From Candidatus Nomurabacteria bacterium RIFCSPLOWO2_01_FULL_41_12 (GTDB taxonomy: Bacteria > Patescibacteriota > Minisyncoccia > Phycocordibacterales > UBA9973): 40,600 bases of DNA. Every line of letters begins with the position of its first letter. Position 1 is the stretch's first letter. The position numbers and the translations under genes are program-made. The notes under the pieces were generated by a model that was given only the letters and a program-made list of their open reading frames with translations, did not search any database and was not told the DNA's origin. The stretch spans positions 7,355-47,954 of the forward strand of contig MFUY01000002.1 of assembly GCA_001787035.1 (NCBI GenBank). The letters run 5' to 3'. This document shows positions 282 to 40,600 of this stretch, piece by piece.

Positions 282-674
282 TTAATTTTTGTGAATATCT
301 TCTTCTAAATGGGCTAGTTGCTTTTCCACTCTATTCAAAGTATCTTGGAGGTTTTTAATTTGAGTTTCTTCTGTTGCAACTTCTTCTTCCACTTTTTCAG
401 CCATTTTTTCTTCGCCAATCAAGCCGGAAATAATAAGCCGGCTCCCAATAAAAGCGGAGACAAATACTCCCGTGATAAGAAGTATTATGGTTCCTATAAT
501 TATTGAGGCCACAGAACTGACATTAATATCATCGGCCAAATGCCATATTCCGCGCCAAAATAATATTATTCCAATGCCCCCTATGAGCGCGTAAAGAATA
601 GGGTAGTGGCTTAGTTTACTCCTTACTCTGTCTTCCAACTTATCAAAAAATCGCTTTATCTTTTTCAACTTCAT
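282..674 (-). CDS. hypothetical small membrane protein with acidic coiled-coil-like C-terminus
   Basis: 130-aa ORF with two hydrophobic segments (PILYALIGGIGIILFW, IIIGTIILLITGVFVSAFIG) and an EEKMAEKVEEEV tail. TAA stop. No family recognised. Confidence 0.55.
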   Translation of the reverse strand: MKLKKIKRFFDKLEDRVRSKLSHYPILYALIGGIGIILFWRGIWHLADDINVSSVASIIIGTIILLITGVFVSAFIGSRLIISGLIGEEKMAEKVEEEVATEETQIKNLQDTLNRVEKQLAHLEEDIHKN

Positions 675-753
675 CCCAGTACTAAAATTTTAAATAATAA
701 TGTTTATCCTTATTTCCCGTAATCAAAATTAGGTGAAACCGTTACGGGACAAG
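675..753 (-). repeat. Family A leader element, copy A1 (abuts the ATG of the 282..674 gene)
   Basis: The reverse complement reads ACTTGTCCCGTAACGG...AAAATTTTAGTACTGGG followed by ATG. It shares the 5' box ACTTGTCCCGT and the 3' box AAAATTTTAGTACTGGGATG with copies at 4630, 27776 and 36197. Confidence 0.7.
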
Positions 754-2955: not shown

Positions 2956-3765
2956 ATGGAAATCCCACAAGAATATCAAAAGAATTTATATCGTGCAGTA
3001 CTTGCCTTTCTAATCGTCTTGTCGCTTCTGTTCGCAGTAAAGTTTTTCTCTGAGCTCCGCTCTTACGGAATGATGGGCAGCTCAAATGCCAATGTTATCA
3101 CTCTCTCCGGTCATGGAGAAGTGCAGGCAGTACCGGATATTGCCAATGTTTATTTCACTATTTCTAAAGATGCGAAAACAGTAAAAGAAGCACAGGAAGC
3201 TGTGGCGAAAATAGAAAAAGCCGCGCTTGATTTTTTGAAAGGAAAAGGGGTAGCTGATAAAGACATAAAAACCGAAAATGCCTCTTTCTATCCGAAGTAT
3301 GAATATAAATACGATACGAAAATGATGATGCCTTGCAACGAATATGGATGTCCTCCACGAGGAGGCAATAGTGTAATTGTCGGCTATACTGCGTCTGAGA
3401 GCGTTACGGTAAAGGTTCGCAATACTGATGATGCCGGAATTATTATGCAAGGCTTGGGTACAGTTGGCGTTTCTAATTTAAATGGCCCTAATTTTGCCAT
3501 AGATGATGAAGATGCATTAAAAGCTGAGGCTAGAAAAAAAGCGATTGATGATGCGAGAGTTAAAGCAAAAGTTTTAGCAAAAGATCTTGGAGTTAAATTA
3601 GGCAGGATTGCAAATTTCAGCGAGGGAGGCGGATATTTTCCTGTAATGTATGGCAAGGTTGCCGGGATGGGGGGTGATGCTGAAATTTCATCCGCTCCGG
3701 CCGAGATTCCCAAAGGAGAAAACACCATCAGCTCGGACGTGACAATAACTTACGAGATAAAGTAA
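2956..3765 (+). CDS. SIMPL (DUF541) domain secreted/periplasmic protein
   Basis: 269 aa. N-terminal membrane anchor, then GHGEVQAVPDIANVYFTI and an AKVLAKDLGVKLGRI SIMPL-type core. Confidence 0.75.
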   Translation: MEIPQEYQKNLYRAVLAFLIVLSLLFAVKFFSELRSYGMMGSSNANVITLSGHGEVQAVPDIANVYFTISKDAKTVKEAQEAVAKIEKAALDFLKGKGVADKDIKTENASFYPKYEYKYDTKMMMPCNEYGCPPRGGNSVIVGYTASESVTVKVRNTDDAGIIMQGLGTVGVSNLNGPNFAIDDEDALKAEARKKAIDDARVKAKVLAKDLGVKLGRIANFSEGGGYFPVMYGKVAGMGGDAEISSAPAEIPKGENTISSDVTITYEIK

Positions 3766-3794
3766 ACCCGCACACTAAATTTTAGTGTGCGGGT
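3766..3794 (+). terminator. hairpin directly abutting the stop codon (terminator-like)
   Basis: ACCCGCACACTAAA (3766-3779) pairs with TTTAGTGTGCGGGT (3781-3794), followed by AAATTTGATATTTT. The arms resemble the hairpin at 29050/29108. Confidence 0.55.
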
Positions 3795-3833
3795 AAATTT
3801 GATATTTTATAGAAAAAGAGTACTATTAAAACC

Positions 3834-4361
3834 ATGAAACAACTTGATCCAAAGGCAGTCTGGTTATTTTTTATTAGTTCTGTTTTACGTTTGTTTTGGT
3901 TACTCATACTTTTTAGTATTGTAGGTTCGGTAACCTTGATTGATTACCTTAGCAAAAACTTAAATAAGACTGGGGAGATTTCATTTACCTTTCTGAATTG
4001 GCTATGGATTATTATTCCTATTTTTCTTATTATTTGCTTTATTTTGGCAAAGCTTACCTATCATTATTATCGATATGAGATGTCAGAACTCGTGTTTAAA
4101 AAAGAGCACGGCATCATTTGGAAAAAATATGTTTCCATACCTTACGACAGGATTCAAAATGTCGATATTTATCGCGGAGTATTGGCGCGGCTTCTTGGTC
4201 TCTCTGATCTCCAAATTCAAACAGCAGGAGGCATAACTGCCGGTAGCTACGGAGCGTTTTCTGAAGGAAGACTAATAGGAGTATCAAAAGAAGAGGCTGA
4301 AAAATTAAGAGACGAGCTAATCCAAAAAGCCCGCAGTTCTCGTACTGGCCAAGGACTCTAA
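3834..4361 (+). CDS. membrane-flanked bacterial PH domain protein (bPH_2/DUF304, YdbS-like)
   Basis: 175 aa. Two N-terminal TM segments, then PYDRIQNVDIYRGVLARLLGLSDLQIQTAG. Confidence 0.7.
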   Translation: MKQLDPKAVWLFFISSVLRLFWLLILFSIVGSVTLIDYLSKNLNKTGEISFTFLNWLWIIIPIFLIICFILAKLTYHYYRYEMSELVFKKEHGIIWKKYVSIPYDRIQNVDIYRGVLARLLGLSDLQIQTAGGITAGSYGAFSEGRLIGVSKEEAEKLRDELIQKARSSRTGQGL

Positions 4362-4401
4362 TTTTTTAATTTGACTATTTGAGAGAAAAAGAGTAAAGTT
4401 G

Positions 4402-4426
4402 AAAGAGCCCTGAAGGGGGCTTTTTT
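4402..4426 (+). terminator. rho-independent terminator
   Basis: AAAGAGCCC - TGAAGG - GGGCTTTTT stem-loop followed by a T run, between the bPH gene and secE. Confidence 0.65.
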
Positions 4427-4431
4427 AAGAA

Positions 4432-4614
4432 ATGTCAAAGATTACCGAATATTTCAAAGATACAAAAATGGAGCTGAAACATGTAATTTGGCCCGGGAGG
4501 AGCCAGACTCTTTACTATACTTTAATTGTCATAGTTTTGTCAGTTTTAGTCGCGTATTATCTGGGTATTTTTGATTTTATTTTTTCCAAAGGTTTAGAAA
4601 AGTTATTACCATAA
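4432..4614 (+). CDS. secE: preprotein translocase subunit SecE
   Basis: 60 aa with a single TM. ELKHVIWPGRSQTLYYTLIVIVLSVLVAYYLGIFDFIF. Located immediately upstream of nusG. Confidence 0.8.
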   Translation: MSKITEYFKDTKMELKHVIWPGRSQTLYYTLIVIVLSVLVAYYLGIFDFIFSKGLEKLLP

Positions 4615-4629
4615 GCCTCAAGCCTATAC

Positions 4630-4702
4630 ACTTGTCCCGTACTAAATTTTTGATTACGAGGCATAACGATAAACATTAATAATTAAAATTTTAGTACTGG
4701 GA
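4630..4702 (+). repeat. Family A leader element, copy A2 (ends in the nusG ATG)
   Basis: ACTTGTCCCGTACTAAATTTTTGATTACG...AAAATTTTAGTACTGGGA. TCCC 4635-4638 pairs with GGGA 4699-4702, which includes the A of the ATG. Confidence 0.7.
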
Positions 4703-5244
4703 TGAAACAAGAAACAGAGGGGGCAAGAAATTGGTACGCAATACACACTTATGCCGGATATGAAAATGTCGTCTTGCGTAATTTGCGCCAGCGCATTGAC
4801 TCCCTAGGTATGAACGATAAAATTTTCAACGTTATTGTTCCGATTGAAAAAAAGATAAAAATAAAAGGAGGCAAGAGAGTGGAGGTGGAAGAAAAAATTT
4901 ATCCGGGTTATGTTTTGGTTGATATGATTGTGACGGATGATTCTTGGTATGTGGTGAGGAATACTCCGCGGGTCACCGGTTTCGTCGGCGCGGGAGTAAA
5001 CCCGGTGCCTCTTAAAAAAGAAGAAGTGGAGTATCTTTTCAAGAAGATGGATGCCGGCACAACTAAGCACAATATTGACATGGTTATCGGCGAGAGCATT
5101 CTGATTACCGATGGTCCGTTTAAAGAACTGGAAGGGAAAATTAATTCCATTGACCAAGAGCGTGGCAAAGTTAAAGTGCTTGTTTCAATGTTCGGTCGCG
5201 AGACCCCGGTCGAACTAGATTTCTTGCAAGTCAAGAAAATTTAA
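4702..5244 (+). CDS. nusG: transcription termination/antitermination factor NusG
   Basis: 180 aa. WYAIHTYAGYENVV, YPGYVLVDM and a KOW-type C-terminus ITDGPFKELEGKI. Confidence 0.9.
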   Translation: MKQETEGARNWYAIHTYAGYENVVLRNLRQRIDSLGMNDKIFNVIVPIEKKIKIKGGKRVEVEEKIYPGYVLVDMIVTDDSWYVVRNTPRVTGFVGAGVNPVPLKKEEVEYLFKKMDAGTTKHNIDMVIGESILITDGPFKELEGKINSIDQERGKVKVLVSMFGRETPVELDFLQVKKI

Positions 5245-5258
5245 GATAATGTATCAGA

Positions 5259-5302
5259 GTCGCGCTTAAAGGACGGTTGCGCGACATGATTTCGCAAAAT
5301 CA
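5259..5302 (+). repeat. Family B leader hairpin pair, copy B1 (abuts the rplK ATG)
   Basis: GTCGCGC (5259-5265) - 13 nt loop - GCGCGAC (5279-5285), then ATGATTTCGCAAAATCA. Near-identical copy at 31249-31294. Confidence 0.7.
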
Positions 5303-5728
5303 ATGGCTAAAAAAATAACCAAAAAAATAAAACTTCAAATTCAAGCTGCAAAGGCCACTCCGGCGCCGCCCTTGGGGCCTGCGCTCGGCCAAGCCGGCAT
5401 AAATATCGGAGATTTTGTCACCAAGTTCAACGCTGCCACAGCCAAAATGGCCGGGGATAAAGTCGGTGTTTCCATTACTGTTTATGAAGACAGGAGCTAT
5501 GATTTTATTGTGAAAACACCTCCAGTAACCGGGCTTATCTTAAAAGCCGCTGGGGTGGAGAAAGGTTCTGGTAAAAATGTTGCGACAAAAGCGGGTAAAA
5601 TCACTCGCGCACAAGCTTTAGAAATCGCAAATAAAAAAAGAGCGGATTTGAATGCCAAAGATGACGAAGGCGCAATACGCATTATCGCCGGCTCTGCTCG
5701 ATCTATGGGTATTGAAGTAGTGGATTAA
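5303..5728 (+). CDS. rplK: 50S ribosomal protein L11
   Basis: 141 aa. [26 protein letters not shown]. Follows nusG as usual. No rplA follows. Confidence 0.95.
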
Positions 5729-5736
5729 CGAAGCCT

Positions 5737-6462
5737 ATGTTAAGATACTCATATATGTCAAACATTAAACAATATTTTACGCAGAAAAATGTTCTCTTTA
5801 TTGTTATTTTCGCAGTTTTGGGGTTTATCGCTCTGCAAATTCCAGTGGCCCAATTGGAAGGGTCTAAAGTGAAGTTTATGGTCTATGACGCTTTCGCTCC
5901 TGTGGCCGGCGCTTTTATCGGTAGCTTGCCTGGCGTAGTGGCGGTCTTTTTAATGCAATTTGTAAATTTCTTGGTGCACGGAGCAGTTGTGGAAGATGCC
6001 GGAACAATTATTCGTTTTTTGCCGATGCTTTTCGCGGCATTATACTTCGCTCGGAAAGGAAAATCTAATCTAGTCGTTCCAGTACTTGCGATTATCGCTT
6101 TTATTGCTCATCCTATCGGCCAAACGGTTTGGTATTTTGCACTTTTCTGGACCATTCCAATTATTGCCTATTTTTTCCGTGACAGGTTTCTTTTGGCGCG
6201 GGCGCTTGGCGCCACCTTTACCGCCCACGCGGTCGGCGGCGCTTTATGGATCTGGGTTTTCAACCTGCCGGCGCCGGTTTGGGTCTCGCTTATACCGGTT
6301 GTGGCTCTAGAGCGCGGATTTTTTGCTCTTGGAATTGTTATTTCTTTTGTTCTTGTCAACAATCTTTTAGCTTTTCTCGAAAAGAAATATATCTTAAATC
6401 TCGGTTTTACTATTAACCAGGGATATCTCTTGGGCGCATTACGCCATGAATCGAAAGTCTAA
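5737..6462 (+). CDS. multi-pass membrane protein; possible vitamin/folate-type transporter component (context only)
   Basis: 241-aa ORF (alternative ATG at 5755) with about 6 hydrophobic segments. Its stop overlaps the next gene. Any function is inferred only from the adjacent folate genes. Confidence 0.5.
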   Translation: MLRYSYMSNIKQYFTQKNVLFIVIFAVLGFIALQIPVAQLEGSKVKFMVYDAFAPVAGAFIGSLPGVVAVFLMQFVNFLVHGAVVEDAGTIIRFLPMLFAALYFARKGKSNLVVPVLAIIAFIAHPIGQTVWYFALFWTIPIIAYFFRDRFLLARALGATFTAHAVGGALWIWVFNLPAPVWVSLIPVVALERGFFALGIVISFVLVNNLLAFLEKKYILNLGFTINQGYLLGALRHESKV

Positions 6463-24898: not shown

Positions 24899-24927
24899 AA
24901 AAATCCTCCACTATGGAGGATTTTTTT
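24899..24927 (+). terminator. strong rho-independent terminator immediately after rplB, inside the S10 cluster
   Basis: AAAAATCCTCCA-CTA-TGGAGGATTTTT (12-bp stem) with a T7 run. The A run upstream makes it potentially bidirectional. Confidence 0.75.
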
Positions 24928-25016
24928 ATTAACAACCATAACTTGCGTTATTTTGTGTAGATTATAGACTTTATAATGGAATCATACATAAACTTTGTTC
25001 TCTCACCCCAGATATT

Positions 25017-25301
25017 TTGGGGTAAATCGTAACGTTGTCGTTTCGGAGGGGGTCAATGCACCACGTGTCAAGGCGTCGTCGTCGCCAGGCGAGGAGAGTT
25101 ATCATCGCCGTGGCTATGTTGTTCATTGTACGTCGGGCGAAGGAGGCCCGTGTTACGCGTCGCAAACGACGCTAGTCTGGTGCATCCACCCTCTAGCTGG
25201 CTCCCCGCCGGCCCCTCAACATCGCTGGCTCCCGCCAGTCCCACCCCGCCCCGGCCTTCGACGCCTGTCGAATGCTGGGGCACTCTTATTTTTACCCCCA
25301 A
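25017..25301. other. GC-rich insert 1 between rplB and rpsS; candidate structured RNA or foreign DNA remnant
   Basis: 151 of 240 nt are G+C in 25021-25260, and 47 of 60 in 25201-25260. The flanking line 24941-25000 has 16 of 60. Complementary segments: 25046-50/25189-93, 25056-62/25179-85, 25134-38/25146-50, 25157-62/25167-72, and possibly 25017-26/25291-301. TATAAT at 24972-24977 lies upstream. Strand undetermined. Confidence 0.5.
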
Positions 25302-25328
25302 CGGCTCAAATACCAGTATTTGAGCCGT
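25301..25328. other. perfect 12-bp hairpin at the right edge of GC-rich insert 1
   Basis: ACGGCTCAAATA-CCAG-TATTTGAGCCGT. No U-tract on either strand. Confidence 0.6.
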
Positions 25329-25342
25329 TCGCTGACTTTCAT

Positions 25343-25370
25343 TTGACATTTTAGCCATATTTGTTAGTAT
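25343..25370 (+). promoter_or_regulatory. near-consensus sigma70-like promoter re-initiating at rpsS
   Basis: TTGACA (25343-25348), 16-nt spacer, TAGTAT (25365-25370). Followed by leader hairpin GGCTC-AATTGA-GAGCC (25379-25394) and GTTTTGTTTG. Confidence 0.55.
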
Positions 25371-25423
25371 GTTTTTAAGGCTCAATTGAGAGCCGTTTTG
25401 TTTGCTTAAGAGAAAACATAAGA

Positions 25424-27771: not shown

Positions 27772-27775
27772 TTAT

Positions 27776-27847
27776 ACTTGTCCCGTTGCAAATTCAACGA
27801 ATGGGACATAAAGGATAAAAATTATTAATTAAAATTTGCAACTGGGA
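27776..27847 (+). repeat. Family A leader element, copy A3 (ends in the rplN ATG; classical S10|spc boundary)
   Basis: ACTTGTCCCGTTGCAAATT...AATTTGCAACTGGGA. GTTGCAAATT 27785-27794 pairs perfectly with AATTTGCAAC 27833-27842, and TCCC pairs with GGGA 27844-27847. It carries three compensatory pair changes relative to A2 and A4. Confidence 0.75.
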
Positions 27848-28218
27848 TGATACAAAACGAAAGTTTAGTTAAAATAACAGATAACGCTGGAGGCACCGTG
27901 GGTAAAGTGTTCAAGATTTTAGGCTCTTCAAAAAAAAGATACGCGACTTTGGGCGAATTGGTTATTATTTCTGTGAAAGTAGCTTCTCCACGAAAAGGGG
28001 TAAAGAAGAAAGACGTGCATCAGGCAGTCGTCGTACGCACCAGAAGCGCCTACAGAAGGAAGGATGGATCTTATATTCGTTTTGACGATAATGCTGTAGT
28101 GCTCTTGGAAAAAGGCAAGCTTGACCCGAAAGCCGGGCGCGTCTTCGGTCCGATACCGAGAGAGCTTGCTGAAAAGGGATTTCAAAAAATAATTTCGCTG
28201 GCGCAGGAAGTAATTTAA
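27847..28218 (+). CDS. rplN: 50S ribosomal protein L14
   Basis: 123 aa. MIQNESLVKITDNAGG. Confidence 0.95.
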   Translation: MIQNESLVKITDNAGGTVGKVFKILGSSKKRYATLGELVIISVKVASPRKGVKKKDVHQAVVVRTRSAYRRKDGSYIRFDDNAVVLLEKGKLDPKAGRVFGPIPRELAEKGFQKIISLAQEVI

Positions 28219-28464: not shown

Positions 28465-29049
28465 ATGAAACATTTAACCGTAAAAGAAAAAGAAGTGCAA
28501 GCCTTTGAGAAAATGAAAAACTCTACTGTGGCGTTAAGCTCGGAGTTTCATTATAAAAATGCCATGGCTTCGCCGAAGATGGAGAAGATTGTTTTGAACA
28601 CAGGCACTGGGACAGCCATCAAGAAAGATAAAAATAAAAATGATGCTATCGGAGAACGTTTAGCCAAAATTACCGGGCAGAGGCCGGTTCTAAAAGGCGC
28701 CAAGCAGTCCATTGCGTCTTTTAAAGTCCGCCAGGGCGACCCTATCGGCATCGTTGTGACATTGAGGGGCAAGAGGATGTATGCTTTCCTAGAAAAACTT
28801 ATAAATGTCGCCATCCCCCGCACCAAAGATTTCCGTGGTATTGCCCGCACGGCAGTGGATACTATCGGCAACCTCACCATTGGCATCAAAGAACACACTA
28901 TTTTTCCGGAAACAGCTGATGAAGATATCCGCGACGTTTTCGGCATGTCTATTACTCTGGTTTCCACAGCTAAAAATAAAAAAGAAGGTACAGCTTTCTT
29001 TGAACTCCTGGGTGTCCCTTTCAAGAAGGAAGAAGAGAAAAAGAAATAA
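28465..29049 (+). CDS. rplE: 50S ribosomal protein L5
   Basis: 194 aa. PKMEKIVLNTGTG, ITGQRPV, FRGI, GIKEHTIFPE. Confidence 0.95.
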   Translation: MKHLTVKEKEVQAFEKMKNSTVALSSEFHYKNAMASPKMEKIVLNTGTGTAIKKDKNKNDAIGERLAKITGQRPVLKGAKQSIASFKVRQGDPIGIVVTLRGKRMYAFLEKLINVAIPRTKDFRGIARTAVDTIGNLTIGIKEHTIFPETADEDIRDVFGMSITLVSTAKNKKEGTAFFELLGVPFKKEEEKKK

Positions 29050-29121
29050 ACCCGAACACTTATATGTATAACGCAACTTCGTTGCGCACTTTTGGCGCAT
29101 TATGCAAATAAGTGTGTGGGT
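29050..29121 (+). other. long-loop hairpin abutting the rplE stop
   Basis: ACCCGAACACTTAT (29050-29063) pairs with ATAAGTGTGTGGGT (29108-29121), 12 of 14 complementary. Internal CGCAAC-TTC-GTTGCG. The arms resemble the 3766-3794 terminator hairpin. Confidence 0.5.
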
Positions 29122-29194
29122 AAAGTTATCCACAGTTTTTATTGATATATGAATATATAGGTCTACTATTAAGGATGGAGTCTGTACATCAGTG

Positions 29195-29550
29195 TGAGTA
29201 GATTCCCGTGCACTGCCCACGTATCGGCAGAAGAAAGCAAAGAGGATCCTCACATGACGAATCGTCTGGCGCCCAACTGGGCGCAGATCAGCGGCAAGCA
29301 GATCTTCTTCAAGCATCCGTTCGGCGTCGGCAACACCAACAAGGAGGCGCAGGGCGGCACGTAGGCGAAGAAGCCAAGCGCGCCGCGGCATCAGGGGTTT
29401 CATCGCAAGGTGAGTAGGTCTTCGGGACCATGGCTCACTAGGGACGGGAAGGGACGGCGCACACAACATCGTGCTCCTTCCCCCCGTCCTTCTCTATTTC
29501 TACCTTGACTATTCCGCGCTTATTTGCTAGGCTCAAGGGGCCTAGCAATA
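29195..29550 (+). other. GC-rich insert 2 between rplE and rpsN: leader, SD plus 36-codon ORF, and hairpin-rich 3' part
   Basis: 146 of 240 nt are G+C in 29221-29460. Possible promoter TTGATA-16-TACTAT at 29142-29169. Hairpins at 29410-29438, 29441-29489 (GGGACGGGAAGGG / CCTTCCCCCCGTCC, then TTCTCTATTTCT) and 29524-29548 (TTGCTAGGC-TCAAGGG-GCCTAGCAA). 8-nt direct repeat GTGAGTAG at 29194 and 29410. Confidence 0.55.
29254..29364 (+). CDS. candidate 36-aa small protein MTNRLAPNWAQISGKQIFFKHPFGVGNTNKEAQGGT (no family recognised)
   Basis: ATG preceded by AAAGAGGA, whose GGA ends 7 nt upstream. 33 of 36 codons end in G or C, unlike the A/T-ending usage of neighbouring genes. TAG stop at 29362-29364. 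Too short for the ORF track. Confidence 0.4.
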   Translation: MTNRLAPNWAQISGKQIFFKHPFGVGNTNKEAQGGT

Positions 29551-29589
29551 GATCGATCTGTATTTCTCCTTAAGGTCTTTAGTAGTTTT

Positions 29590-29618
29590 TTGAAGAACTT
29601 TAAGAAAAAATATACGAT
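29590..29618 (+). promoter_or_regulatory. possible promoter re-initiating at rpsN
   Basis: TTGAAG (29590-29595), 17-nt spacer, TACGAT (29613-29618). Weak call. Confidence 0.3.
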
Positions 29619-29662
29619 ATCATCTATAAAAATAGGCGATATTTACTAGTTAATTTTTTTTG

Positions 29663-29848
29663 ATGGCAAAAACATCAGTAAAAGCGAGAGCTTCAAAGAA
29701 ACCCAAATTCAGCACCCGGGCCAAGAACCGATGTTTTCGCTGTGGCCGAGGCAATGCTTTTATGAGAGATTTCGGCATTTGCCGTATTTGTTTCAGAGAG
29801 TTGGCAAATGAAGGAATGTTACCGGGTGTTCGTAAATCAAGCTGGTAG
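29663..29848 (+). CDS. rpsN: 30S ribosomal protein S14, zinc-binding type Z
   Basis: 61 aa from the ATG at 29663. CFRCGR...CRICFRE double CxxC, C-terminal LPGVRKSSW. Confidence 0.95.
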
Positions 29849-29852
29849 TTAA

Positions 29853-29890
29853 CAGGTGTTGGACACCCGAATTCGGGTGTCCAACACCTG
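29853..29890. repeat. Family C hairpin, copy C1: perfect 38-nt palindrome (rpsN-rpsH spacer)
   Basis: CAGGTGTTGGACACCCGAA|TTCGGGTGTCCAACACCTG. Followed by the tandem CACCTGAAG x2. No U-tract. Confidence 0.8.
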
Positions 29891-30835: not shown

Positions 30836-30888
30836 ATACAGGTGTTAAATACAGGTGTTGGACACCCGGGTTCAGGTGTCCAACACCT
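30834..30888. repeat. Family C hairpin, copy C2 (rplF-rplR spacer) with tandem 13-mer
   Basis: AAATACAGGTGTT x2, then AGGTGTTGGACACC (30853-30866) pairing with GGTGTCCAACACCT (30875-30888). Same arms as C1. Confidence 0.8.
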
Positions 30889-31248: not shown

Positions 31249-31294
31249 GTCGCGCTTTAATGGACGATTGCGCGACATGATTTCGTAAAATCAT
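31249..31294 (+). repeat. Family B leader hairpin pair, copy B2 (abuts the rpsE ATG)
   Basis: GTCGCGC (31249-31255) - 14 nt loop - GCGCGAC (31270-31276), then ATGATTTCGTAAAATCAT. Confidence 0.7.
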
Positions 31295-31885
31295 ATGGAA
31301 AAGACAAAAGAAAAAAAGAATAATAATCGCAGAGGATCCTCTTTCGGACGAGCAAAGCCGGAGTTTGACCAGAAGATTTTAAATATTCGCCGCGTGACCA
31401 GGGTTGTCGCTGGCGGACGCCGGTTTTCCTTTAGCGTCGCTTTGGTGGCCGGGGATAAAAAGGGGTCTGTTGGTTTAGGCTTGGGAAAAGCGGGAGATAC
31501 GGCACTCGCGATAAATAAAGCAGTACGCAATGCCAAGAAAAATATGATAAGGTTAAAGTTGACAAAGACAATGTCTATTCCCCACGAGCTTTCTGCTAAG
31601 TTTTCAAGCTCACGAATTATTCTTTTGCCGAACAAGGGTCGCGGGCTGGTAGCTGGCTCGGTTATTCGCGATATAATAAAACTCTCCGGGATGAAGGATA
31701 TTACTGGGAAAATCGTGTCTAATAGCAAGAATAAATTAAACAATGCCAAAGCAGTCATGGAGGCTCTCTCTGTTATTTCTTCAAAATATGCAAAACCAGT
31801 AGTGGAAAACATTACCATAGTCCCGGTAGAAGTTCCTATCCCCGCAACATTTATTAAAGATGTAAAAGAGGAACCCCAGCAGTAG
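31295..31885 (+). CDS. rpsE: 30S ribosomal protein S5
   Basis: 196 aa. INRVTKVV-like RRVTRVVAGGRRFSFSVALVAGD, GLGLGKAGD. Confidence 0.95.
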   Translation: MEKTKEKKNNNRRGSSFGRAKPEFDQKILNIRRVTRVVAGGRRFSFSVALVAGDKKGSVGLGLGKAGDTALAINKAVRNAKKNMIRLKLTKTMSIPHELSAKFSSSRIILLPNKGRGLVAGSVIRDIIKLSGMKDITGKIVSNSKNKLNNAKAVMEALSVISSKYAKPVVENITIVPVEVPIPATFIKDVKEEPQQ

Positions 31886-36194: not shown

Positions 36195-36196
36195 CC

Positions 36197-36270
36197 ACTT
36201 GTCCCGTACTAAATTTTTGATTAAGATAAATGACCACTCTTAGTAACAATTTAAAATTTTAGTACTGGGA
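36197..36270 (+). repeat. Family A leader element, copy A4 (ends in the map ATG)
   Basis: ACTTGTCCCGTACTAAATTTTTGATTAAG...AAAATTTTAGTACTGGGA. Both boxes are identical to copy A2. Confidence 0.7.
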
Positions 36271-37052
36271 TGATAATTATTAAAACACCAGAAGAAATAG
36301 AAATACTGCGAAAAGGGGGCAGGCATCTGGCGGCTGTGCTTCATAAAGTAAAAGAGAAAATAAAACCAGGAATTTCCACGAAAGATTTGGATGATTATGC
36401 ATTTAAGTTAATTAATGAAATGGGCGACTCTCCCGCATTTTTGAATTATCGTCCAGCCGGCGCGAAAGTTCCTTTTCCTGCAAGTCTTTGTGTGTCTGTC
36501 AATGATGAAGTAGTGCACGGCATTCCAAACAAGGAAAGAATATTAAAAGAGGGTGACATTGTCGCGCTTGATTTAGGACTTAAGCATAAAGGGCTTTTTA
36601 CCGACATGGCATTTACGGTACCAGTAGGGAAAGTGAGTTCTAGCGCTCTTAAATTAATGGAGGTGACAGAGAAGGCACTGCAAGTGGGCATCAATGCGGC
36701 GCAAGCCGGCAATACGGTAGGGGACATCGGCCATGCCGTTGAGAGTTTTGTGCGTGCCCAAAAAAACAGCCAGCAGTACGGTATTGTAGAAGTTCTCTCG
36801 GGGCACGGAGTCGGACGCGCAATACATGAAGACCCCTATATACCCAACTTTGGGAAAAAAGGGAAAGGAGAAAAGTTAGTTCCGGGCATGGTCATTGCGC
36901 TCGAGCCGATGATAAATAACGGCACAAAAAATGTGACTTTGGACGATGACGGCTACACTTTCCGCACAGCTGACAGCAAAAACAGCGCGCATTTTGAGCA
37001 TACAATTTTGATTACCGAAAATGGGCCGGAAATTTTGACCAAAACTTTTTAA
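36270..37052 (+). CDS. map: type I methionine aminopeptidase
   Basis: 260 aa. VVHGIP, DIVALDLG, FTDMAFT, GHGVGRAIHE, ALEPM, FEHTILIT. Confidence 0.95.
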   Translation: MIIIKTPEEIEILRKGGRHLAAVLHKVKEKIKPGISTKDLDDYAFKLINEMGDSPAFLNYRPAGAKVPFPASLCVSVNDEVVHGIPNKERILKEGDIVALDLGLKHKGLFTDMAFTVPVGKVSSSALKLMEVTEKALQVGINAAQAGNTVGDIGHAVESFVRAQKNSQQYGIVEVLSGHGVGRAIHEDPYIPNFGKKGKGEKLVPGMVIALEPMINNGTKNVTLDDDGYTFRTADSKNSAHFEHTILITENGPEILTKTF

Positions 37053-39942: not shown

Positions 39943-40600
39943 ATGATACCAAAAAATTTTAGGAAAAAATTTCTTACAAGGACGGTCCTTGGGGAAACTT
40001 CTTTAAGGACCGTCCTTAGACTACTTGGACTTTTAGTCTTAGCTTTTTTGGTTTTTTCTCCGGTAGCGGTAGGGGCGGTTTCGGATGTGCAGTTCAGCAT
40101 TCCCTTCTCCAAATTCAATCCCTACCTCTCTAAACTAAAAGATATAAAGAATGAAATAGTTTCCTCTATTACTTCCGCCACCTCCCAAACAGCCAACATC
40201 TTAGACACCTTCACCGACAATCTCCGAGATGCCTGGAGAGCTTATGTTAATCCTCTGCCTCCTCTCCCGACCAAAGTCCCGACCCGGGTCGGGGCCATCA
40301 TCACCGTCTCTGCCCCTCCCCCAGTCATCTCTGACCAGGCTCTACTGAACGCTCTCTCTATTCTCTTCAATAACAAAGAGATAGCTTCCAGATTCAGAGG
40401 CTCTCCTGGATTACCAGGTCCGGAAGGTAAAGAAGGTCCTCCTGGACCCAAGGGAGAGACAGGCTCCTCCCTCGGCCGTAGCCCTATGGGCGAGGCCTCC
40501 GTCACCTACATACCCTCCAATCCTTCCACTAACTTCGGAGGAGCTTCCATCTTCTCTGTTACAGACTTATCTTCCAATAAATTAATCACCGAGACAGCTA
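39943..40600 (+). CDS. secreted/anchored protein with collagen-like G-X-Y repeats, 3'-truncated by the window end
   Basis: ATG at 39943 and open to nt 40600, so it is absent from the ORF track. MIPKNFRKKF..., TM segment LLGLLVLAFLVFSPVAVGAV, and eight G-X-Y triplets GSPGLPGPEGKEGPPGPKGETGSS at 40399-40470. The minus-strand track ORF 40242..40505 is its antisense shadow. Confidence 0.7.
   Translation, partial: MIPKNFRKKFLTRTVLGETSLRTVLRLLGLLVLAFLVFSPVAVGAVSDVQFSIPFSKFNPYLSKLKDIKNEIVSSITSATSQTANILDTFTDNLRDAWRAYVNPLPPLPTKVPTRVGAIITVSAPPPVISDQALLNALSILFNNKEIASRFRGSPGLPGPEGKEGPPGPKGETGSSLGRSPMGEASVTYIPSNPSTNFGGASIFSVTDLSSNKLITETA
39978..40018. repeat. Family D composite element, copy D5, inside the 5' coding region of the collagen-like gene
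   Basis: AAGGACGGTCCTT-GGGGAAACTTCTTT-AAGGACCGTCCTT. The two arms are exact reverse complements and are read as T-R-T-V-L and L-R-T-V-L. Confidence 0.7.

What the first reader, a model, noticed from the sequence alone, without database searches (positions are those of the whole stretch)
29050..29662. Second GC-rich module splits rplE from rpsN in the spc cluster, laid out like a self-contained transcription unit
rplE and rpsN are normally contiguous (established). Here they are 613 bp apart.

Seen in sequence, in order:
- A hairpin abutting the rplE stop (29050-29121).
- A possible TTGATA-16-TACTAT promoter (29142-69).
- A block with 146 of 240 G+C (29221-29460) that contains an SD-preceded mini-ORF.
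- Three hairpins: 29410-38; 29441-89, followed by a T-rich tail; and the 9-bp-stem TTGCTAGGC/GCCTAGCAA at 29524-48.
- A 10-nt palindrome AGATCGATCT.
- A weak promoter before rpsN.
- The 8-mer GTGAGTAG as a direct repeat at 29194 and 29410, flanking the ORF-bearing core.

Together with insert 1, the universally conserved S10-spc cluster is broken by two compositionally foreign cassettes with the same layout: stop-hairpin, promoter, GC-rich body, hairpins, restart promoter. That shared layout suggests one kind of element or system rather than random junk. Its function is unknown. Candidates are a small protein plus RNA, a type I toxin-antitoxin-like pair, or a regulatory RNA.
Basis: partly seen in the sequence, partly recalled or inferred. 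Interest (0 to 1): 0.8.

Follow-up and report, generated by a model that had tools for sequence, protein, structure and literature searches.

The report
Orphan mini-gene in ribosomal-operon spacer
The 613-bp gap between two ribosomal protein genes of this Nomurabacteria (CPR) genome is real, but it is not a broken operon: it holds a small orphan gene with foreign, G+C-rich codon usage, sitting in a spacer where related genomes carry many different extra genes, followed by a promoter and structured leader for rpsN that the whole group shares.

Summary
rplE (28465-29049) and rpsN (29663-29848) are 613 bp apart, every listed feature is at its stated coordinates, and the stretch is identical in 9 independently assembled contigs, so it is not a mis-assembly.

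The premise does not hold for this clade. In 63 related Nomurabacteria/Paceibacterota genomes the rplE-rpsN gap is never below 136 bp, and it is 450-2900 bp in about half. Those longer gaps carry pilins, membrane proteins, dUTPase, DGR retroelements or G+C-rich DNA.

The last ~158 bp (29505-29662) are a clade-wide rpsN promoter (TTGACT-17-TGCTAGTAT) plus a covarying leader hairpin.

The lineage-specific part (29122-29501) is a small transcription unit found at this site in only three close lineages. Promoter, Shine-Dalgarno/ATG and a -31 kcal/mol terminator hairpin are conserved. The ORF is 36, 55 or 21 codons long, is barely alignable, has GC3 of 0.8-0.9 against a host mean of 0.39, and has no homologues.

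It matches no Rfam family and is not repeated. It shows no sequence relation to insert 1, no antisense promoter and no strain-level hypervariability. Its function is unresolved. My reading is an orphan small gene of foreign origin in a cargo hot spot. Interest is modest.

The parts
28465..29049 (+). rplE (uL5), upstream flank
   Evidence: Pfam Ribosomal_L5 / L5_C. 100% identical to L5 of Cand. Nomurabacteria bacterium RIFCSPLOWO2_01_FULL_41_12.
29050..29121 (+). 72-nt imperfect hairpin abutting the rplE stop, found only in this species. Its 3' side overlaps a terminator-like hairpin with a T run (29115-29134 plus GTTTTTATT).
   Evidence: Fold. Terminator-like hit. Absent as a clean 75-nt indel from the sister species (alignment A1). 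No other copy in the window or in about 100 loci.
29142..29169 (+). Promoter of the mini-gene: -35 TTGATA (29142-47), 16 nt, -10 TACTAT (29164-69)
   Evidence: Conserved as TTGACT-16-TAGCAT in the sister and TTGACT-16-TATGCT in L099. Segment identity 0.75 against 0.53 at neutral 4-fold sites.
29213..29230 (+). 5'-UTR hairpin CTGCC-N8-GGCAG
   Evidence: A hairpin stands at the equivalent place in the sister (CTGGC..GCCAG) and in L099 (GCTGGCGGA..TCCGCCTGC), within otherwise diverged sequence. The homology of these positions is inferred.
29241..29251 (+). Shine-Dalgarno AGAGGA within the palindrome GAGGATCCTC
   Evidence: Invariant between window and sister (GGAGGATCCTCACA). L099 has AAGGAG preceded by its complement CTCC-GAAA.
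29254..29364 (+). Mini-ORF, 36 codons plus TAG: MTNRLAPNWAQISGKQIFFKHPFGVGNTNKEAQGGT
   Evidence: GC by codon position is 0.49/0.43/0.92. The only stretch of this kind in the 40.6-kb window is 29248-29400. CAI-like value 0.58, below all 2000 random host 37-codon windows. Homologous ORFs of 55 and 21 codons share only the N- and C-termini, in frame. No homologues.
29410..29438 (+). 3' hairpin H1 (GTGAGTAGGTC-loop-GGACCATGGCTCAC)
   Evidence: -15 kcal/mol, z = -4.1. Present in L099 with a different loop, deleted in the sister.
29441..29501 (+). H2: G+C-rich hairpin 29441-29489 plus pyrimidine-rich tail TTCTCTATTTCT. Taken to be the intrinsic terminator of the mini-gene and, in the sister lineages, the first terminator after rplE.
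   Evidence: -31.6 kcal/mol, z = -5.7. 92% identical to the sister. L099 keeps the fold through compensatory changes. The terminator function is inferred.
29505..29533 (+). Clade-wide rpsN promoter: -35 TTGACT (29505-10), 17 nt, extended -10 TGCTAGGCT (29525-33).
   Evidence: Present at the same place upstream of rpsN in all relatives examined; 57 of 66 match the full -35/-10 pattern.
29534..29662 (+). Conserved rpsN 5' leader. Covarying hairpin 29557-29617 with invariant UUCUC / AAAAA internal loop and GAUAUC. Contains the AGATCGATCT palindrome.
   Evidence: blastn matches to about 35 relatives only in this part of the gap. RNAalifold on 42 sequences: 17 pairs, 13 with compensatory changes. 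No Rfam match.
29663..29848 (+). rpsN (Zn-ribbon type uS14, 61 aa), downstream flank
   Evidence: Pfam Ribosomal_S14, 3e-23.

Best explanation
The gap has two unrelated parts.

(1) 29505-29662 is the ordinary, clade-wide rpsN promoter plus a structured 5' leader. In Nomurabacteria the rpsN-rpsH-rplF... genes have their own start signals, so the rplE|rpsN junction is a permissive spacer. Across the clade it has become a hot spot for extra DNA.

(2) 29122-29501 is one such cargo: a small stand-alone gene of foreign, high-G+C origin, inherited vertically in three closely related lineages.

Proposed mechanism, with each step marked:
- A sigma-70-type promoter at 29142-29169 drives a ~330-nt, strongly folded transcript (inferred).
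- The transcript carries a Shine-Dalgarno site next to its own complement (shown in the sequence) and a short ORF of 36 codons here (shown). I infer that the ORF is translated.
- It ends at the hairpin H2 with a U-rich tail (hairpin shown; termination inferred).
- H2 also insulates the rpsN promoter 4 nt downstream of that tail from read-through. In the sister lineages, which lack a hairpin directly after rplE, it would terminate the upstream rplE operon as well (inferred).

Selection is visible on the expression signals and the terminator. It is not visible on the peptide sequence. The product is therefore a weakly constrained small peptide, a structured RNA, or both. It is not a core ribosomal component and not a mobile element.
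For: - Real and stable: identical in 9 assemblies.
- Hot spot: the gap is 136-220 bp in about 30 relatives and 450-2905 bp in about 33 relatives. Cargo is diverse: type IV pilin-like and membrane-protein genes, DGR cassettes (target gene, VR/TR, Avd, RT) in L014/L032, a 1.1-kb insert of 55-60% GC in L026, dUTPase in L106.
- Shared promoter and leader: only window 29505-29648 aligns to relatives. The promoter is seen in all of them, and the leader hairpin has 13 of 17 compensatory pairs.
- Homologous insert at the same site in the sister species (rplE 91% aa; L090-L094, L097) and in L099/L100 (89%).
- Segment identity window vs sister: promoter 0.75, SD 0.88, H2 0.92, against 5'UTR 0.59, ORF 0.50, 3'UTR 0.51. 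The neutral 4-fold-site identity is 0.53.
- SD+ATG is present in all three lineages. The N-terminal T-N-R-x-A-P and the C-terminal G-x-T..K-K/R motifs are kept in the same frame despite length differences of 45 and 57 nt, both multiples of 3.
- GC3 is 0.92 / 0.91 / 0.82 against a host mean of 0.39 and maximum of 0.51, and the CAI-like value lies outside the host range.
- H2 is stable in all three lineages with compensatory changes.
- No promoter-like site on the - strand.
Against: - There is no expression data. TSS, termination and translation are all inferred.
- The peptide is not conserved (21, 36 and 55 aa; the middle cannot be aligned). The window's TAG aligns with a sense codon in the sister, and the 3-periodicity runs about 12 codons past it. 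That pattern also fits a decaying gene.
- In G+C-rich DNA, open frames of this length are easy to get by chance.
- Public gene callers did not call this + strand ORF in the sister and called an antisense ORF instead. No entry for the sister's peptide was found in the protein collection.
- The H2 tail has 8 U in 12 nt, but they are interrupted, so termination could be weak.
- Only about 28 of 64 relatives have an obvious terminator right after rplE. rplE and rpsN may therefore still be partly co-transcribed in the clade.
- No donor of the G+C-rich DNA was found.
Confidence: 0.55

Rival explanations
1. Decaying remnant (pseudogene) of a horizontally acquired high-G+C gene. The ancestor of the three lineages took up foreign DNA at the hot spot. 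Internal deletions have since left different stumps of 21, 36 and 55 codons, and the 3-periodic GC3 is a fossil of the donor's codon usage. The unit has no present function apart from its terminator.
For: - ORF lengths differ through large indels, and ORF and UTR identity (0.50-0.59) is at the neutral level of 0.53.
- The window's stop codon aligns with GCG in the sister, and periodicity continues to about 29400.
- There are no homologues anywhere.
- Other relatives carry G+C-rich foreign DNA at the same site (L026).
Against: - Promoter, SD and ATG are kept in all three lineages, well above neutral identity.
- The net indels between the conserved N- and C-terminal motifs are multiples of 3.
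- GC3 is still 0.82-0.92 after about 0.75 substitutions per neutral site between the lineages (my estimate). My rough decay model would predict about 0.7-0.8.
- Third-position differences in the alignable codons are mostly G<->C.
Confidence: 0.22
2. Structured non-coding (or dual-function) small RNA. The conserved product is the ~330-nt folded RNA (5' hairpin, H1, H2), and the ORF is incidental or serves only to load ribosomes.
For: - The + strand fold has z = -8.0.
- H1 and H2 are stable, with loop changes or compensatory changes between lineages.
- A hairpin is retained at the same 5'-UTR position despite sequence turnover.
- The peptide is not conserved.
- G+C-rich islands in A+T-rich genomes are often structured RNAs (general knowledge).
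Against: - The strong codon-position periodicity (0.49/0.43/0.92) is a coding signature, not an RNA-structure signature.
- Apart from H1, H2 and one short 5' hairpin, the three MFE folds share no architecture.
- H1 is deleted in the sister.
- No Rfam family matches, even at E up to 10.
- Three sequences are too few for a covariation test.
Confidence: 0.15
3. Type I toxin-antitoxin-like locus: a small toxic peptide mRNA with a sequestered SD, repressed by an antisense RNA.
For: - Size and layout: a ~330-nt unit with a highly folded mRNA, and the SD lies adjacent to its own complement (GAGGAUCCUC here; CUCC-GAAA-GGAG in L099).
- Intergenic location and lack of homologues are typical of such loci.
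Against: - None of the three peptides has a hydrophobic or transmembrane stretch, and their charges differ in sign.
- There is no promoter-like site on the - strand.
- It is single-copy in all the data held.
- There are no PADLOC or Pfam hits.
- Insert 1's peptide, not this one, has the toxin-like look.
Confidence: 0.04
4. Insert 1 and insert 2 are two copies of one kind of mobile or systematic element that targets the ribosomal cluster. A related version is that insert 2 is a remnant of, or a target for, a diversity-generating retroelement.
For: - The generic layout is the same: terminator, promoter, SD plus small ORF, G+C-rich hairpins, terminator, next promoter.
- DGR cassettes sit at exactly this junction in L014/L032.
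- AAC-rich, GC3-fixed codons resemble DGR template or variable regions.
Against: - The two inserts share no sequence similarity.
- There are no terminal repeats beyond chance, no transposase or integrase, and no further copies.
- Both inserts are inherited at fixed sites at about the divergence of the flanking genes.
- The ORF is invariant among 9 contigs here and 6 contigs of the sister, while rpsN next to it carries SNPs.
- There is no TR/VR repeat in the window.
Confidence: 0.03

Closest known systems
Integration hot spots / variable 'islets' between conserved core genes (as in bacterial pangenome hot-spot analyses; from my own knowledge)
   Same: One fixed junction between two conserved core genes carries different, unrelated cargo in different lineages: pilins, membrane proteins, DGRs, dUTPase, G+C-rich DNA, or nothing. 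Some of that cargo is compositionally foreign.
   Different: The hot spot lies inside the S10-spc ribosomal protein cluster, which is usually treated as uninterrupted. No integrase, tRNA or att-like repeat marks the site.
Orphan small-ORF genes and dual-function sRNAs (e.g. SgrS/SgrT, RNAIII/hld, SR1/SR1P; from my own knowledge)
   Same: A short independent transcript with its own promoter and intrinsic terminator, extensive secondary structure and a short translated-looking ORF with an SD.
   Different: There is no sequence or family relation. The peptide is far less conserved than the expression signals. Codon usage is strikingly foreign (GC3 0.92 in a genome with GC3 0.39). No target or phenotype is known.
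Autoregulatory ribosomal-protein leaders, in particular the E. coli spc-operon S8 site (from my own knowledge); r-leader candidates of Eckert & Weinberg 2020 (PMC7247131)
   Same: The 3' part of the gap (29534-29662) is a conserved, covarying structure directly upstream of rpsN-rpsH, as expected for an r-protein-binding leader.
   Different: It sits before rpsN rather than rplE. It matches no Rfam family, and I found no rpsN leader in that paper. The binding protein is unknown.
Type I toxin-antitoxin loci
   Same: Size, a folded mRNA, the SD next to its complement, orphan status.
   Different: There is no hydrophobic peptide, no antisense promoter and only a single copy.

Membership tests
Rfam RNA families (any) | Covariance-model match at or near the gathering score | tested here: not met
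   The whole window at gathering threshold gives only tRNA-His. 28900-29800 at E up to 10 gives only noise hits to miRNA/snoRNA models, far below gathering.
Intrinsic (Rho-independent) terminator, for H2 | Stable G+C-rich stem-loop directly followed by a U-rich tract | tested here: met
   -31.6 kcal/mol hairpin at 29441-89 followed by UUCUCUAUUUCU (8 U of 12, interrupted). The fold is kept in three lineages with compensatory changes. The generic scanner did not call it because the stem is long and bulged and the T run is interrupted.
Type I toxin-antitoxin | Small hydrophobic / membrane-active toxin peptide | tested here: not met
   The peptides of 36, 55 and 21 aa have no hydrophobic helix and no shared charge pattern.
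Type I toxin-antitoxin | Antisense or divergent antitoxin RNA gene | tested here: not met
   No -35/-10-like site on the - strand of 29050-29662. Expression was not testable.
Diversity-generating retroelement (VR or TR) | TR/VR repeat pair with adenine-specific differences, and a nearby RT | tested here: not met
   No repeat of the body in the 40.6-kb window. The true DGRs at this junction in L014/L032 show a 125-131-nt VR/TR pair and a 343-aa RT. The rest of the genome could not be scanned.
Diversity-generating retroelement (VR or TR) | Hypervariability of the VR within populations | tested here: not met
   The ORF is identical in 9 contigs here and 6 contigs of the sister, while the adjacent rpsN carries 7 SNPs.
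Mobile element (IS / MITE / integron cassette) | Terminal repeats or target-site duplication, multiple copies, recombinase or attC | tested here: not met
   The 8-mer direct repeat is at chance level. There are no further copies in the window, in about 100 loci, in viral contigs or in JGI metagenomes apart from the sister species. No recombinase ORF is present.
Known protein families (Pfam, PADLOC) for the mini-ORF | Profile match | tested here: not met
   No hit at E up to 10. The exhaustive HMMER search returned only the identical protein plus multi-repeat proteins of unrelated families (choline-binding, FG-GAP, Ig-like). That is score inflation from summed repeat matches, not homology.
Ribosomal-protein leader (for 29534-29662 only) | Conserved structured element in the 5' UTR of an r-protein operon, with covariation | tested here: met
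   42 sequences, 17 pairs, 13 of them with compensatory changes. It lies immediately upstream of rpsN in all relatives.
Ribosomal-protein leader (for 29534-29662 only) | Binding and feedback by an encoded r-protein | not testable with these tools
   Needs binding or reporter assays. S14 or S8 are only guesses, based on gene order.

The most novel reading that the evidence does not exclude
Nomurabacteria may carry a previously unrecognised class of tiny, fast-evolving, G+C/GC3-rich genes placed at internal promoter junctions of the ribosomal protein cluster. This one sits at rplE|rpsN. An Arg-rich small ORF sits at rplB|rpsS, conserved as a peptide in the sister and with N-terminally similar basic ORFs in two more distant relatives. 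Their products, ribosome-associated micro-proteins or translation-sensing leader peptides/RNAs, would be functionally tied to ribosome synthesis. The atypical codon usage would then be maintained by selection rather than inherited from a donor.
Probability: 0.08. Interest if true: 0.65.

Novelty: new member of a known kind. Interest (0 to 1): 0.3.

Why it matters
- It corrects a tempting reading. The S10-spc cluster of these CPR bacteria is not invaded by a special element. It is naturally segmented by internal promoters, and the rplE|rpsN junction is a tolerated landing site for diverse cargo, including DGRs and foreign DNA. This matters for anyone who uses ribosomal-protein synteny blocks of CPR genomes for binning, phylogeny or operon inference.
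- The mini-gene itself is a clean example of an orphan small ORF. Its expression signals are conserved and its peptide is not, and its GC3 is unusually persistent. That makes it a modest test case for how foreign or de novo small genes survive in reduced genomes.
- The by-product may be the more useful result: a clade-wide, covarying leader upstream of rpsN that is absent from Rfam. It is a candidate new ribosomal-protein leader.

Tried and rejected
- Mis-assembly or contaminant: rejected. There are 9 identical independent contigs, and the insert is homologous in two other lineages.
- Known RNA: rejected (Rfam).
- Known protein or defence family: rejected.
- Donor search for the G+C-rich DNA:
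  - Plasmids and phages by blastn gave nothing meaningful.
  - Viral contigs gave nothing.
  - A JGI metagenome scan with the invariant H2 20-mer found only the sister species plus two 20-22-nt chance matches in contigs of 71-73% GC.
- Protein homology:
  - The 5.8-billion-sequence search found only the identical peptide for the window ORF and nothing for the sister ORF.
  - The exhaustive HMMER search gave repeat-protein artefacts. The resemblance of NWAQISGKQIFFK to choline-/cell-wall-binding repeats is not backed by Pfam and is not conserved in the sister ORFs.
- DGR variable region: considered because DGRs sit at this very junction in L014/L032 and because of the AAC-rich, GC3-fixed codons. 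Rejected for lack of a repeat and of any strain-level variation.
- Frame-by-frame protein comparison of the window and sister bodies gave only low-complexity Arg-rich matches.
- A common whole-transcript fold for the three lineages was not found.
- Literature searches for CPR ribosomal-operon insertions or Nomurabacteria DGRs returned nothing.
- Not done: building a covariance model (three sequences are too few) and structure prediction of a 36-aa orphan (uninformative).
Full report
**Observation**

The window comes from Candidatus Nomurabacteria bacterium RIFCSPLOWO2_01_FULL_41_12, a member of the Paceibacterota/Parcubacteria in the CPR. Its L5 is 100% identical to that record's. rplE ends at 29049 and a Zn-ribbon-type rpsN starts at 29663, so the 613-bp gap is real.

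The + strand folds much better than shuffled sequence (z = -8.0, against -4.8 for the - strand).

The same 613 bp are 100% identical in nine contigs assembled independently from different samples (ENA, Logan and the ANAN16 Rifle assemblies). This excludes mis-assembly or a contaminant join.

Two details do not carry weight:
- The GTGAGTAG direct repeat is at chance level. Shuffles of the insert give on average 2.8 repeated 8-mers against 2 observed.
- The generic promoter and terminator scans find no more sites than shuffles.

**The premise fails in this clade**

I fetched the rplE neighbourhood of 80 GTDB species representatives with 59-85% L5 identity and measured the rplE-to-rpsN distance wherever both genes were on the locus (63 genomes). 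The distance is never near zero. About 30 genomes have 136-220 bp, and about 33 have 450-2905 bp.

The long gaps hold unrelated cargo, mostly on the + strand:
- a type IV pilin-like family, seen in 9 or more genomes, often paired with a small membrane protein (also L095, L102, L107);
- complete diversity-generating retroelements in L014 and L032, each with a target gene, a 125-131-nt VR/TR pair, an Avd-like ORF and a 343-aa RT;
- a 1.1-kb insert of 55-60% G+C with - strand ORFs in L026;
- a dUTPase plus three unknown genes in L106;
- TruB-like and coiled-coil proteins, and short hairpins.

The junction is therefore a cargo hot spot in this group, not a universally tight joint.

**The 3' third of the gap is a shared rpsN promoter and leader**

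When the window's gap is compared with all other gaps, only positions 456-599 (window 29505-29648) find matches, in about 35 genomes. The alignment shows a strong promoter, TTGACT-17 nt-TGCTAGTAT, in all relatives; the full -35/-10 pattern is matched in 57 of 66. In the window it reads TTGACT (29505-10) and TGCTAGGCT (29525-33).

After the promoter comes a ~105-130-nt leader. RNAalifold on 42 leaders predicts a long hairpin (window 29557-29617). It has an invariant UUCUC/AAAAA internal loop and an invariant GAUAUC, and 13 of its 17 pairs show compensatory changes.

The '9-bp hairpin TTGCTAGGC/GCCTAGCAA' overlaps the -10 element. The 'AGATCGATCT palindrome' lies in the leader. The real promoter before rpsN is this strong, conserved one at 29505-33.

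The leader matches no Rfam family. I found no rpsN leader in the 2020 survey of ribosomal leaders (PMC7247131).

A terminator-like hairpin with a T run follows rplE within about 100 nt in roughly 28 of 64 relatives. The junction is thus often, though not always, a true operon boundary.

**The lineage-specific part is a small transcription unit**

A search with the L5 protein found closer relatives than the GTDB representatives, and I fetched their contigs.
- A sister species has a 614-bp gap that is homologous to the window's. Its L5 is 90-91% identical, and it is represented by L090-L093, L097 and MAG RIFCSPHIGHO2_01_FULL_40_12 (L094).
- A third lineage (L099/L100, L5 89%) has a shorter homologue.
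- Other relatives at 85-91% carry different cargo or none (L095, L101, L102, L104, L106).

The element is therefore confined to a small group and is inherited at a fixed site.

The comparison defines the parts as follows.
- The 72-nt hairpin at 29050-29121 is specific to this species (a clean indel) and is not repeated anywhere.
- The promoter is kept: TTGATA-16-TACTAT here, TTGACT-16-TAGCAT and TTGACT-16-TATGCT in the other two.
- An SD plus ATG is kept: GGAGGATCCTCACA is invariant between window and sister, and L099 has AAGGAG.
- The G+C-rich hairpin H2 (29441-89, -31.6 kcal/mol) with its UUCUCUAUUUCU tail is 92% identical in the sister. L099 keeps the fold through compensatory changes.
- Hairpin H1 (29410-38) is shared with L099, with a different loop, and is deleted in the sister.

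Segment identities between window and sister are:

| Segment | Identity |
|---|---|
| Promoter | 0.75 |
| SD | 0.88 |
| H2 | 0.92 |
| 5' UTR | 0.59 |
| ORF | 0.50 |
| 3' UTR | 0.51 |

The neutral yardstick from 514 four-fold degenerate sites in seven flanking genes is 0.53, which I estimate as roughly 0.75 substitutions per site. Selection is therefore visible on the expression signals and the terminator, and not on what lies between them.

**The ORF**

The window's ORF (29254-29364, 36 codons) has G+C of 0.49/0.43/0.92 at codon positions 1/2/3. Host genes average GC3 0.39, with a maximum of 0.51. A scan for such periodicity finds only 29248-29400 in the entire 40.6-kb window. In about 90 related loci, all but one of the other hits (one in L047) also lie in rplE|rpsN gaps: the sister, the DGR target genes and L026.

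Its codon adaptation to the host (0.58) is below all 2000 random 37-codon host windows. This is a coding signature with foreign codon usage.

The homologous ORFs are 55 codons in the sister (GC3 0.91) and 21 codons in L099 (GC3 0.82). The three peptides share only an N-terminal T-N-R-x-A-P-like motif and a C-terminal G-x-T...K-K/R-P/T motif. Both motifs are in the same frame, so the net length differences (57 and 45 nt) are multiples of three. The window's TAG aligns with a sense codon in the sister, and the periodicity runs on for about 12 codons.

There are no homologues. The 5.8-billion-sequence protein search finds only the identical 36-aa entry and nothing for the sister ORF. Pfam and PADLOC find nothing. 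The exhaustive HMMER search returns only multi-repeat proteins of unrelated families, which I treat as repeat-driven artefacts.

No donor DNA was found in plasmids, phages, viral contigs or JGI metagenomes.

**What it is not**
- It is not a known RNA family.
- It is not a repeated or mobile element.
- It is not related in sequence to insert 1.
- It is not an active DGR variable region. The ORF is invariant in 9 plus 6 contigs while the neighbouring rpsN is polymorphic, and there is no template repeat in the window.
- It is not a convincing type I toxin-antitoxin locus. There is no hydrophobic peptide and no - strand promoter.

**Most likely mechanism**

This is inferred; no expression data are available. 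A promoter at 29142-69 would produce a ~330-nt, highly folded RNA. That RNA carries an SD lying next to its own complement and a short ORF, and it would terminate at H2.

H2 ends 15 nt before the -35 of the rpsN promoter, so it would also shield that promoter from read-through. In the sister lineages, which lack any hairpin after rplE, H2 is the first terminator downstream of the rplE operon. This may explain why it is the best-conserved piece.

The ribosomal genes are unaffected because rpsN has its own promoter and leader throughout the clade.

I cannot decide between three readings of the product, and I rank them in this order:
1. a weakly constrained micro-protein;
2. a decaying stump of a foreign gene;
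3. a structured or dual-function RNA.

**Relation to insert 1**

Insert 1 (24899-25423, between rplB and rpsS) is likewise homologous in the sister, at about the divergence of its flanks. Its ORF (25056-25175, MHHVSRRRRRQARRVIIAVAMLFIVRRAKEARVTRRKRR) is conserved as a protein, with conservative and synonymous changes. Its 3' hairpins show compensatory changes.

More distant relatives (L101, L107) also have 454-666-bp rplB|rpsS spacers. These hold small basic ORFs starting MH/MY-H, followed by G+C-rich hairpins and a conserved rpsS promoter.

The shared 'layout' of the two inserts is simply that of a small gene placed before an internal promoter. Nothing ties the two together as one element family.

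**Verdict**

The finding is a lineage-restricted orphan mini-gene of foreign composition, sitting in a cargo hot spot, and it is followed by an ordinary rpsN promoter and a leader that matches no Rfam family.

Interest is modest (0.3) and the novelty class is 'new member of a known kind'.

The most novel reading still open is a CPR-specific class of ribosome-linked micro-genes whose odd codon usage is maintained by selection. I put that at about 8%.

Noticed in passing
window 29534-29662 (hairpin 29557-29617); same position upstream of rpsN in L010-L089: A clade-wide structured leader follows a TTGACT-17-TGCTAGTAT promoter upstream of rpsN. It has an invariant UUCUC/AAAAA internal loop and GAUAUC, and 13 of 17 pairs show compensatory changes in 42 sequences. 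It is not in Rfam, and I did not find it in the 2020 r-leader survey. It is a candidate new ribosomal-protein leader.
   Followed up: partly
window 24899-25423 (ORF 25056-25175); L090 1078-1590; L101 1756-2209; L107 1687-2352: The rplB|rpsS spacer ('insert 1') encodes an SD-preceded 39-aa Arg-rich peptide with a hydrophobic core. The peptide is conserved in the sister species with synonymous and conservative changes. It is followed by G+C-rich hairpins with compensatory changes and by a conserved rpsS promoter (TTGACA-16-TAGTAT, 25343-25370). More distant relatives have other small basic ORFs starting MH/MY-H at the same junction.
   Followed up: partly
L014 3745-6247 and L032 about 3700-6300 (rplE|rpsN gap): Complete diversity-generating retroelements sit at the same junction: a ~200-aa target gene with a C-terminal VR (L014 4224-4348), a TR (4686-4810, 88% identical), an Avd-like ORF on the - strand and a 343-aa RT.
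   Followed up: partly
L026 3600-4750: Another Nomurabacteria genome carries a ~1.1-kb block of 55-60% G+C (genome 43%) at the rplE|rpsN junction, with - strand ORFs of 174 and 146 aa and GC3-periodic stretches. This looks like independent foreign DNA at the same hot spot.
   Followed up: no
window 4629-4707, 27775-27852, 36196-36275 (+) and 670-728 (-): A ~75-nt repeated element (CACTTGTCCCGT...AAAATTTTAGTACTGGGATG) ends exactly on the start codons of four genes, including rplN. Its ends look complementary, which suggests a hairpin that sequesters the start codon. A similar element is appended to the rpsN leader in the sister species and in L059.
   Followed up: no
window 5266-5326 and 31257-31317; 20234, 21932, 26144, 27333, 39977, 40005; 29854-29890 and 30852-30888: Further recurrent intergenic elements. 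The first is a 61-nt repeat (..GCGCGACATGATTTCG.AAAATCA..) that runs into the start codons of the genes at 5303 and 31295 (rpsE). The second is a set of AAGGACCGTCCTT palindromes at several gene junctions. The third is a pair of near-identical 37-nt perfect hairpins after rpsN and after rplF.
   Followed up: no
L091 about 3710 (insert 2 ORF) and L094 about 1430-1500 (insert 1): Public scaffolds of the sister species have runs of N inside the G+C-rich inserts. Gene callers missed rpsN on several contigs (L001, L002) and called an antisense ORF inside the sister's insert. These islands are evidently hard to assemble and annotate.
   Followed up: no
window about 40000-40600 (+), runs off the end: A G+C-richer open frame with collagen-like Gly-X-Y repeats (GPEGKEGPPGPKGETG) starts near the end of the window. 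It follows a pair of AAGGACGGTCCTT hairpins.
   Followed up: no
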